A stretch of DNA of 64,000 bases from contig OX597834.1 in assembly GCA_951406725.2 (NCBI GenBank), positions 40,362,001 through 40,426,000 on the forward strand, given 5' to 3'. This document shows positions 1,459 to 5,275 of this stretch, one piece after another. Under the pieces are notes generated by a model, which had not been told where the DNA came from, made no database searches, and was given only the letters and a program-made list of their open reading frames with translations. The stretch's first letter is position 1. Each line of letters opens with the position of its first letter. Source of the stretch: Octopus vulgaris. Taxonomy: Eukaryota. Made by a program: the position numbers and the translations under genes.

Positions 1459-1592
1459 AATCTCCCTGAGAGCTACATTGAGGGTACGGGTGTCTGTGGA
1501 GTGCTCAGCCACTTGCAAGTTAATTTTCACGAGCAGGCTGTTCCATTAATCGGTTCAACTAGAACCCTCGTCGTCGCAACCGACGGAGTGCC
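1459..1592 (+). mobile_element. 5'-truncated copy of the family C SINE 3' end
   Basis: AATCTCCCTGAG...GTGTCTGTGGAGTGCTCAGCCACTTGCA...ACCGACGGAG matches 1201-1329. Confidence 0.7.
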
Positions 1593-2004
1593 ATATGTCT
1601 GAATACAAAGGAAGGAACCGAAAAATGTTTTCACTCGCCATCGCACAAAATCCTTTGGAGTGAGAGAAAGCAGTTTTTCGACCGCCTTTCTTTCTCTGGG
1701 GTGGTCATTGAAGCACACGCAAGAATTGTGTTACTGAGACCTTAAAATAGAATTGTTCGAAATTAAATATTCTTGCAAATATTCAAATTGTTGAAATTAA
1801 ACGAAAACGAATTTCAACAATTTTTTTTTAAATTCTGTAGTTTCGGCTGGAAATAAAAGATAGGAGCAAGATTTATTATTTTTTTTATTTTTTTGGTTTG
1901 GATTTCTTCGTTTGTCTCTCCGTCATCATCATCATCATCATCATCATCATCGTATTCGTCGTCGTCGTCATCATCATCATCATCATCATCATCACCACCA
2001 CCAC

Positions 2005-2466
2005 CAAAATACATTTGCTGATTTCGAAAATCTGTTCGAAAGCAATAATAATTCTCTAAAAGAGATATAGACAGTAACTGCTCGATAACATAGAATTATT
2101 ATTGCTTTCGAACAGATTTTCGAAATCAGCAAATGTATTTTGCTTGAAAATCTATATATGAATATCCTGCAGAGTGAGAATTCGTCGAGGAAGCGGAAGC
2201 CTACCACACGCCGACGATAGGCAATACACCTTGAAACCATGGTCCGTGTGTGGTTTCCGCTTCATCGGGGAATTACCTCCCTTTGCAGGATAAGGACACC
2301 GTGACGGTGTCGAGCCTTTCTGGTGACGTCGATGTTCGCCTGGGGCTAAATGCAACAGTAACACCCCCACCACCCTGCCCTGTCCCTAGCCATATTCAGA
2401 TGGCTTTAGTCCCTTATGTTATCGAGCAGTTACTGTCTATATCTCTTTTAGAGAATTATTATTGCT
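2005..2466 (+). mobile_element. Retrozyme-like or Penelope-mobilised non-autonomous element: a 360-nt monomer with a 15-nt terminal direct repeat and an inverted 5' segment
   Basis: AGAATTATTATTGCT occurs at 2092-2106 and 2452-2466. 2005-2055 is the reverse complement of 2092-2142, and 2041-2092 is the reverse complement of 2415-2466. The unit contains a hammerhead motif. Confidence 0.7.
2163..2292 (+). ncRNA. Type I hammerhead ribozyme motif with a ~45-bp extended stem I (core variant CCGACGA)
   Basis: cacacg-CCGACGA-(t)agg-caataca-cct(t)-GAAAC-CATG-GTC-cgtgtg. Stem I continues as gaagcggaagcc/ggtttccgcttc, aattcgtcga/tcggggaatt and tatcctgcagag/ctttgcaggata. Stem III is the palindrome ACCATGGT. 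Confidence 0.7.
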
Positions 2467-3084
2467 ATATATATATACATATACATAAATATATATATGT
2501 GTGTGTGTGTGTTGTGTGTCTTGTACTCTATTTTTTCGTTGTTTAAGAAAAATGGCCATTTCCTTGGTTTTGTGTTTTATGTTTTCGCTTCTCATTGTGT
2601 TCGACGTTTTTTTGGTGTCCTGTACTCATATATGCATGTATATATACATATAGATGTAGGTACGTACATATATGTATGTATATATGCATATGTTTTATTT
2701 ATTATTTTGTTATATGATAGAACGCACGCATCCACTTCTAACTAAGCTTTATCTTAATATATATATATACATACATATATGCGTACTCGTGAACACACGG
2801 TTTTGGAAAGAAAACTATCGTAAAATTTTGTGAGTGGAGCGAGAGAACGAGATAAGAATTTGGCTTGTTATTTGTCAATAATTAGTTTTTGCTCCCAATT
2901 TGTTGTCGTCCTATTAATATTAATGTTTCGTTTCTTCTATGTTCTAAATTTTTCTAAATGTCTTCCATATTTTGAGGTTTACCTTCGAGTATTTCCTGAT
3001 TATCAGAAATGTCGAAATTGTCTAACGTTTATCAGTCTTGTGTGAGACGTTGCGTAATTTCCTCACACTGCAACGCAAGTCTAA

Positions 3085-4857: not shown

Positions 4858-5182
4858 TTGGAGTAAAGATTTTTGCCAACATAACATGGTAGTCCCGGCT
4901 TAGGACGAATGTTGCTGTAATTTAACCCCATCGTCTCCAGCTTACTCTACGACACGATGTGTGTCCTTATATTTTCGAACAAGGGAATCTAGCACCCCCA
5001 CTCAGCTCAAAACAATATCTGTGTATAATTGAGTGGGAGTGCTAGATTCCCTTGTTCGAAAATATAAGGACACAGATCGTGTCTTAAAATAAGCTGGAGA
5101 TATGTCTCCTGGGGCTAAATTACAGCAACATTCGTCCTAAACCAGGACTGCCGTGTTATGTTGGCAAAAATCTTTACTCCAA
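4858..5182. mobile_element. Foldback/MITE-like long inverted repeat (~145-bp arms)
   Basis: TTGGAGTAAAGATTTTTGCCAACATAAC...GAATCTAGCACCCCCACTCA is mirrored by TGAGTGGGAGTGCTAGATTC...GTTATGTTGGCAAAAATCTTTACTCCAA, with a ~25-nt spacer. Confidence 0.85.
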
Positions 5183-5275
5183 AGTACTGTTGCTGAATAC
5201 CTCATGTTGTGAGATTTAAAAATAGTAAGTTTCTAATGTAAAATTGTTTTTACTATTTCTAACCATAAATGAACA

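What the first reader, a model, noticed from the sequence alone, without database searches (positions are those of the whole stretch)
2005..2466. 360-nt hammerhead-bearing unit whose inverted flank spans its own end-to-start junction (retrozyme or circular-RNA signature)
Seen in sequence: the order is X-Y-Z-Y'-X'-[core]-Z'-Y'. The monomer 2092-2451 is bounded by a 15-nt direct repeat. The 88-nt inverted segment 2005-2092 is the exact reverse complement of Z'+Y'+X', a sequence that is contiguous only if the monomer is tandem or circular. The monomer folds extensively: a ~45-bp rod closing a type I hammerhead (GAAAC-CATG-GTC, predicted cut after 2244), the palindrome GACACCGT-G-ACGGTGTC, and GGGGCTAAA/TTTAGTCCC. 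It has no credible ORF. Established: metazoan retrozymes are small non-coding hammerhead-containing retroelements that yield circular RNAs, and Penelope-like elements leave inverted, truncated terminal-repeat segments when they integrate. Inference: this is a cephalopod retrozyme-like element copied from a circular or multimeric RNA by a Penelope-type reverse transcriptase. The perfect identity of the inverted arms suggests a recent insertion.
Basis: partly seen in the sequence, partly recalled or inferred. Interest (0 to 1): 0.85.

Follow-up and report, generated by a model that had tools for sequence, protein, structure and literature searches.

The report
Young hammerhead-repeat parasite of Penelope elements
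This is one copy of a young family of about 1,400 non-coding 360-base repeats that carry an altered ribozyme motif and are likely copied around the genome by the enzymes of Penelope-type jumping genes, possibly from a small RNA circle.

Summary
The unit is not single-copy: about 1,390 near-identical units lie dispersed in the genome as head-to-tail arrays of up to ~11 units. Insertions show the Penelope-like-element (PLE) signature: two arms joined at truncated 5' ends, fixed 3' ends 44 nt apart (69 of 81 second arms end on one base), (TA)n targets. Units of one insertion mostly share one haplotype (76 of 86 arm pairs) and run through the predicted cut without scars, which fits one monomer copied repeatedly: a circle, or seamless strand transfer. 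The core is not canonical: CCGANGA (U4C) or UUGANGA, with no intact CUGA copy in the young family; older relatives are canonical and the fold covaries. Two young intact RT-GIY-YIG families are candidate helpers; neither is homologous to the unit. One insertion fuses the unit to one of them; the other also has U4C. Cleavage, expression and circles are untested. The window copy is an atypical one. The kind is known (animal non-LTR retrozymes, PLE link proposed). The scan noted similar architectures in other genomes, none alike in sequence.

The parts
2092..2466 (+). Forward arm, 375 nt: one 360-nt period plus 15 nt, ending at the family's fixed tailed 3' end (unit position q15)
   Evidence: 216 exact copies of this end followed by AT in the genome
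2005..2092 (-). Inverted second arm, 88 nt (unit q324-360 plus q1-51); atypical outer end at q51 instead of q331
   Evidence: 75 of 81 second arms end at q322-334
2161..2292 (+). Long predicted rod that extends hammerhead helix I
   Evidence: prediction
2205..2250 (+). Type I hammerhead-like motif: helix I 2205-2210/2245-2250, helix II 2218-2232 with U.U at its base, GAAA 2233-2236, predicted cut after 2244
   Evidence: sequence
2211..2217 (+). Non-canonical core CCGACGA (U4C at 2212)
2236..2243 (+). 8-nt palindrome forming helix III; predicted to pair between two units (double hammerhead)
   Evidence: palindrome kept with other letters in relatives
2295..2311 (+). Hairpin; 5' truncations of family arms cluster at and just upstream of its 5' foot (q201-211)
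2342..2413 (+). Stem 2342-2350/2405-2413 just upstream of the tail-less end
   Evidence: prediction
2423..2466 (+). 44-nt tail between the two fixed 3' ends of the family (q331 = 2422 and q15 = 2466)
2467..2500 (.). (TA)-rich right flank, the family's usual target
1924..2004 (.). (CAT)n/(CAC)n left flank; no TA run, unlike all 75 second arms with normal ends

Best explanation
The feature is one atypical insertion of a young, dispersed family of non-coding 360-nt hammerhead-bearing repeats that is likely mobilised in trans by the reverse transcriptase and GIY-YIG endonuclease of a Penelope-like element. Shown: copy number, tandem arrays, two-arm geometry, two fixed 3' ends 44 nt apart, (TA)n targets, mostly one haplotype per insertion, non-canonical core. 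Inferred mechanism: the PLE protein nicks both strands of a (TA)n tract and starts cDNA inside the RNA at two sites (q15 and q331), one per strand; the two cDNAs stop at variable points and join, giving inverted arms with the tail on one side (about 0.85). Each arm copies one monomer sequence repeatedly (about 0.8); I take a ligated 360-nt circle, made by slow dimeric or protein-assisted hammerhead cleavage, as the most likely template (about 0.5). In the window copy the outer ~280 nt of the second arm and its TA flank were lost, or that arm started at a wrong site. The helper is not identified: family 1 about 0.35, family 2 about 0.3, another PLE about 0.35.
For: 1,391 exact copies of a 21-mer of the motif, 0 for the reversed control; 166 matches at the 40 scored of 1,037 candidates, most 98-100% and many at 360-nt spacing. 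Of 40 loci picked by full-length match, 28 end at q15, 8 at q8-14, 2 at q1, 2 lack a tailed end. Census of 97 of the first 100 listed tailed ends (216 in all): a second arm was mapped in 81; 75 end at q322-334, 69 exactly at q331, and all 75 abut an AT run. This is the PLE layout of partial tandems, inverted 5'-truncated copy and a 30-40-bp tail (PMC8557442, passages), the tail lying between two RT start sites (PMC11167929, parts 1-2). 55 of 97 tailed arms pass the predicted cut and 45 exceed one unit; 0 indels at q150-158 in 298 units. 76 of 86 comparable arm pairs share a haplotype against 12.5% (max 23%) when shuffled; 283 of 315 diagnostic site-locus cells are fixed; 10 locus-private variants are fixed in all units of their insertion, 5 in both arms. 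The fold covaries among 21 distinct rows: helix II pair AU 10/GC 10, 3-8 pair CG 16/UA 3/UG 2, loop III palindrome 97% kept. Two young TA-targeting PLE families with intact RT-EN frames are present. L147 joins unit q269-324 directly to the last 270 nt of family 1 (98-99% to young copies) between two TA flanks.
Against: No intact canonical core in the young family; U4C is reported to lower activity considerably in vitro (PMC3088659, passage), helix II opens U.U, and the active fold costs 8.8 kcal/mol. 5' ends are not enriched at the cut (7 seen, 4.8 expected, p 0.20, rank 58 of 360), so cleavage leaves no trace in the DNA; a PLE hammerhead was dispensable for insertion in vitro (PMC11167929). 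Some arrays are mosaic: L049 mixes several haplotypes, 8 private variants are in some but not all units, 20 of 97 multi-unit loci have at least one mixed site. No homology between the family profile and either PLE family, and tail similarity to family 1 is at chance level (961 of 2,000 shuffles). The fusion is one clear case in 140 loci and 1 of 14 q324 variants; family 2 pieces lie near 5 of those 140 insertions without fusion, and PLEs are said to insert next to older copies (PMC6765202, passage). Family 2 makes seamless tandems of its own 4,271-bp unit, so tandems need no small circle.
Confidence: 0.8

Rival explanations
1. Same PLE-driven insertion, but the ribozyme is vestigial: the template is an uncleaved linear RNA of slightly more than one unit, and arrays arise by homologous strand transfer of the RT between copies of that RNA, or by copying multimer transcripts of homogeneous arrays. 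No circle. (A rival for the template step only.)
For: Non-canonical core throughout the young family; no 5'-end excess at the cut; mosaic arrays; hammerhead mutants did not block PLE insertion in vitro (PMC11167929); 8 of 9 Xenopus dimers did not cleave (10.64898/2026.07.22.740005, part 3).
Against: The 3-8 pair, helix II and the loop III palindrome are kept through changes across subfamilies; private variants fixed over all units need a monomer bottleneck, which plain multimer copying does not give; a viroid U4C variant is still active in vivo (PMC3088659, passage).
Confidence: 0.4
2. The unit is only the terminal repeat of an unfound autonomous PLE, and the copies are its 5'-truncated ends.
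For: Same end geometry as PLE ends; an earlier scan note reached this reading for a similar insert in another genome; only 150 of 6,136 GIY-YIG candidates were scored.
Against: Arms up to 3,891 nt consist only of the unit; tblastn with two PLE proteins over 196 loci found ORF pieces in 5, none joined to an arm's 5' end; the profile finds no match in either full PLE unit.
Confidence: 0.08
3. Arrays grew locally in DNA (slippage, unequal exchange) from single inserted units, as a minisatellite; or the inversion is an assembly artefact.
For: L042 shows a gradient of shared variants like local duplication; Li et al. favour local amplification (10.64898/2026.07.22.740005, discussion); no contig bridged the window junctions.
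Against: Both oppositely oriented arms are multimeric and share haplotypes; both outer ends sit at fixed unit positions on many contigs; singleton divergence is only 0.13% (137 of 104,448 bases).
Confidence: 0.07

Closest known systems
Animal non-LTR retrozymes (Cervera and de la Pena 2020, PMC7229834; Li, Clavereau and Pollet 2026, 10.64898/2026.07.22.740005)
   Same: Non-coding tandem units of about 170-400 nt (mussel 350-390 bp) with one type I hammerhead per unit, weak palindromic helix III, U.U at helix II as in axolotl HHR_Amex2; proposed PLE dependence.
   Different: Core is CCGA or UUGA, not CUGA; GC 46%, at the edge of the <45% stated; circles and cleavage not shown here. Here the PLE link rests on insertion anatomy and one fusion, not on pLTR homology, which was not found. 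In the parts read, neither paper describes tails, inverted arms or (TA)n targets for retrozymes, nor a cephalopod case.
EN+ Penelope-like elements, Neptune/Nematis type (PMC8557442; PMC11167929; PMC4209133)
   Same: Partial tandems, inverted 5'-truncated copy, tail on one end, microsatellite targets, hammerhead upstream of the ends; U3-A8 core covariant known from Schistosoma PLEs.
   Different: No ORF; tail 44 nt against 30-40; no sequence homology to the two young PLE families examined.
Non-autonomous Chlamys elements such as MRC1 (PMC8557442, passage)
   Same: Non-autonomous PLEs with pLTRs and multicopy head-to-tail insertions.
   Different: Those generally resemble their autonomous partners at the 3' end and the clade lacks canonical hammerheads.
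Viroid hammerhead U4C variant (Ambros and Flores 1998, seen only as cited in PMC3088659)
   Same: Same core substitution, reported as weak in vitro but sufficient in vivo.
   Different: A rare viroid variant; here it is fixed in a genomic family of over a thousand units and in an unrelated PLE family.

Membership tests
Animal non-LTR retrozyme | Non-coding head-to-tail repeats of about 170-400 nt | tested here: met
   360-nt period, arrays to ~11 units, longest ATG frame 50 aa
Animal non-LTR retrozyme | Type I hammerhead fold in each unit | tested here: met
   helices I-III present and covarying with relatives
Animal non-LTR retrozyme | Canonical catalytic core CUGANGA-GAAA-UH | tested here: not met
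   91 CC, 9 UU, 0 CU in the first 100 of 1,386; 0 with intact helix I; the 2 CUGA matches are rearrangement junctions
Animal non-LTR retrozyme | Self-cleavage as monomer or dimer | not testable with these tools
   bench assay needed; no 5'-end excess at the cut
Animal non-LTR retrozyme | Expressed as linear and circular monomer RNA | tested here: inconclusive
   only contigs of runs not on record as RNA
PLE-mobilised non-autonomous element | Inverted 5'-truncated arm plus tail on one end | tested here: met
   81 of 97 two-armed; 75 end at q322-334; 44-nt tail
PLE-mobilised non-autonomous element | AT-rich or microsatellite target | tested here: met
   75 of 75 normal second-arm ends abut AT runs
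PLE-mobilised non-autonomous element | 3'-end or pLTR homology with an autonomous partner | tested here: inconclusive
   none to families 1 and 2 or to 50 GIY-YIG loci; most PLE loci of the genome were not examined
Autonomous EN+ PLE | RT plus GIY-YIG ORF | tested here: not met
   no ORF in the unit, none joined to an arm
Neptune clade (candidate helpers) | CX2-5CxxC linker before a C-terminal GIY-YIG | tested here: met
   C-x4-C-x2-C at aa 647 and 650; shared with Nematis
Neptune clade (candidate helpers) | Placement in an RT phylogeny | not tested
   no reference PLE proteins at hand

The most novel reading that the evidence does not exclude
A retrozyme lineage caught in mid-burst whose 360-nt RNA circle is reverse-transcribed in rolling fashion by a two-frame Neptune-type PLE, with a hammerhead that has walked through three non-canonical cores (U3-A8, U3.G8, U4C) while keeping its fold, and has been detuned in parallel with a co-active PLE; L147 records the hand-over of the RT from helper RNA to parasite RNA.
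Probability: 0.22. Interest if true: 0.72.

Novelty: new variant of a known kind. Interest (0 to 1): 0.5.

Why it matters
How retrozymes are copied, and why PLEs insert as more-than-unit tandems, are open questions: the circle model (PMC4209133, discussion) and the PLE link (10.64898/2026.07.22.740005) rest on distribution and phylogeny. This family gives about a hundred nearly unmutated insertions with base-exact PLE marks, a monomer bottleneck, and intact candidate enzymes in the same genome, so the question becomes testable in vitro. It also shows that censuses requiring CUGA would miss a very active family. It is not a new class of element.

Tried and rejected
Expression: no RNA holder listed; not used for or against. 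390-nt contigs in 3 of 4 runs laid equal 360 + 30, which would be a closed loop in an assembly graph (inference), but tandem DNA gives the same. Empty-site or artefact test: no contig bridged the window junctions. Rfam: only miRNA-type hairpin hits below gathering scores. A tail motif shared with family 1, seen by eye, was rejected. 5'-end excess at the cut: not found. Recurrent fusions at q324: only L147 among 14. L212 (29-nt tailed end joined to a family-1 tailed end, 88% to L092) is ambiguous, as the junction has TA microhomology. A sister-family motif from loose ends led to another non-coding 358-360-nt family, not a PLE. 23 canonical-core relatives were read for a joined ORF: none. The window's six-frame ORF list looked low-complexity throughout and tblastn with the PLE proteins found nothing in the window. 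Two papers on hammerhead variants were not held. Repbase and Dfam were not available, and no supplements were seen; they may already list this family or a cephalopod retrozyme.

Full report
Observation. Unit positions below (q) count from 2092. The core at 2211-2217 is CCGACGA, with C at position 4, and helix II starts with U.U. Rfam has no hammerhead hit.

Family. The own genome (2.8 Gb, 227 contigs) holds 1,391 exact copies of a 21-mer of the motif. The 40 scored of 1,037 candidates gave 166 matches, most 98-100% identical and many 360 nt apart. The longest arm is 3,891 nt of pure unit. Singleton differences run at 0.13%, so the burst is very recent. Contigs of runs coded as organisms B, C and D hold the unit with 4-7 differences per ~390 nt and no difference listed at the two core positions.

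Insertion anatomy. Of 40 loci chosen by full-length match, 28 end exactly at q15, 8 at q8-14, 2 at q1 and 2 have no tailed end. I then took 97 of the first 100 listed exact tailed ends (216 genome-wide; the AT after that end was part of the pattern). A second, inverted arm was mapped in 81 and not in 16, some of which are complex; 75 of the 81 end at q322-334, 69 at q331, and all 75 abut AT runs. The two ends are 44 nt apart. This is the PLE layout (PMC8557442, passages: partial tandems, inverted 5'-truncated copy, 30-40-bp tail), and the tail has been mapped between two internal RT start sites (PMC11167929, parts 1-2 of 4). The window copy departs from it: its second arm ends at q51 against (CAT)n/(CAC)n.

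Template. 55 of 97 tailed arms and 45 of 75 normal second arms pass the predicted cut; 5' ends are not enriched there (7 against 4.8, p 0.20) but cluster at q201-211 by the hairpin. There are no indels at q150-158 in 298 units. Across 140 insertions, 283 of 315 diagnostic cells are fixed within a locus, 76 of 86 arm pairs share a haplotype (shuffled 12.5%), and 10 private variants are fixed in every unit of their locus; in L169 twelve differences recur in the full units of both arms. Against this, L049 is a mosaic, 8 private variants are partial and 20 of 97 multi-unit loci have a mixed site, many of them single changes. I read this as one monomer sequence copied repeatedly in most events. A circle explains it, and so does homologous strand transfer on a linear RNA; the DNA cannot separate them.

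Ribozyme. Among 1,386 cores with pyrimidines at positions 3-4, the first 100 listed are 91 CC, 9 UU and 0 CU. The canonical form has 0 matches with helix I intact, and the 2 looser matches are rearrangement junctions. A 78%-identical sister family has UUGACAA, and older ~352-nt relatives have CUGA. A 59-row tree, midpoint-rooted and not tested for clades, orders them CUGA-G8, UUGA-A8, UUGA-G8, CCGA-G8, the last at 90/95 support. On 21 distinct rows 93.6% of cells pair; the 3-8 pair, a helix II pair and the loop III palindrome change on both sides, while 10.1-11.1 is unpaired in 14 rows. The old rows were picked with a pattern that fixed helix I, the core and GAAAC, and related rows beat shuffles without structure, so only helix II and loop III count as free evidence. 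The palindrome would pair between units at -11.2 kcal/mol, while the monomeric active fold costs 8.8. U4C is reported as weak in vitro but sufficient in vivo in a viroid, and U.U as the best-tolerated mismatch (PMC3088659, passages). A slow, dimeric or protein-assisted ribozyme is likely; a recently dead one is not excluded.

Helper. A GIY-YIG search (150 of 6,136 candidates scored) gave two young families with RT and C-terminal GIY-YIG and a C-x4-C-x2-C linker of Neptune/Nematis type. Family 1: 781-aa frame, 11 intact copies 96.4-99.8% alike, 911 end motifs. Family 2: 4,271-bp unit, 775-aa frame, 99.7-100% among young copies, 917 end motifs. Both end in (TA)n with their own tails. Neither is homologous to the unit. 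L147 fuses q269-324 directly to the last 270 nt of family 1 between TA flanks, as a template switch would; a later family-1 insertion with target deletion also fits, since family 2 pieces lie near 5 of 140 insertions, 3 in the same TA tract. Family 2's own hammerhead reads CCGAAGA in 31 of 35 rows (18 of the loci were chosen by a young-end motif, and one locus is counted twice), with CUGA only in diverged copies, and it also has U.U at helix II. The helper stays open.

Comparison and novelty. It works like an animal non-LTR retrozyme (PMC7229834, abstract and passages) and fits the PLE dependence argued from phylogeny (10.64898/2026.07.22.740005, parts 1-3 of 5), but it fails the canonical-core criterion, so I file it as a variant. 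The circle-to-tandem model is already in print (PMC4209133, parts 1-2 of 4; PMC6765202, passages). Eight searches listed no cephalopod retrozyme and no genomic U4C family; supplements, Repbase and Dfam were not seen. The scan has no look-alike sequence but has similar architectures in other genomes; one of those notes prompted the check that no ORF is joined to any arm.

Verdict. A real, young, PLE-type non-autonomous family with an unusual core. Interest 0.5: the kind is known, but the data make its life cycle testable.

Noticed in passing
window 5034-5218: A decayed older relative of the same lineage (profile E 3e-11); such relatives also turned up by chance in 3 of 50 PLE loci, so the old family is abundant.
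   Followed up: no
L247 (G000:C1:38876000-38885500), L091: Both young PLE families carry a second long frame upstream of and overlapping the RT-EN frame (453 aa in family 2; 333-479 aa in family 1), although EN+ PLEs are described as single-ORF; a frameshift or splice is possible.
   Followed up: no
L103, L106, L247-L264 against L110, L023: Family 2's hammerhead has U4C in young copies and CUGA in diverged ones, parallel to the 360-nt family.
   Followed up: partly
L091-L102, 3' region: Family 1 has a minimal hammerhead-like motif with the U3-A8 core and the same CAUG palindrome, and 3' tandem repeats rich in ATTGG and TGACGT motifs.
   Followed up: no
L147 (G000:C2:87783900-87787200) 368-865: Direct fusion of the unit to the family-1 3' end inside one TA-flanked insertion.
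   Followed up: partly
L227-L246: Sister 358-360-nt family, 78% identical, same tail-less end and two-arm layout, core UUGACAA; 110 exact motif copies.
   Followed up: partly
window 2316-2417: Summed contig depth in two runs is far higher here than over the rest of the unit, and UU outweighs CC at 2211-2212, hinting at larger, more diverged sister families; depth is no copy number.
   Followed up: no
window 1500-1593 and 2520-2630: Both flanks contain other high-copy repeats; 1567-1912 looks single-copy and lacks 34 nt (1759-1792) in one run.
   Followed up: no
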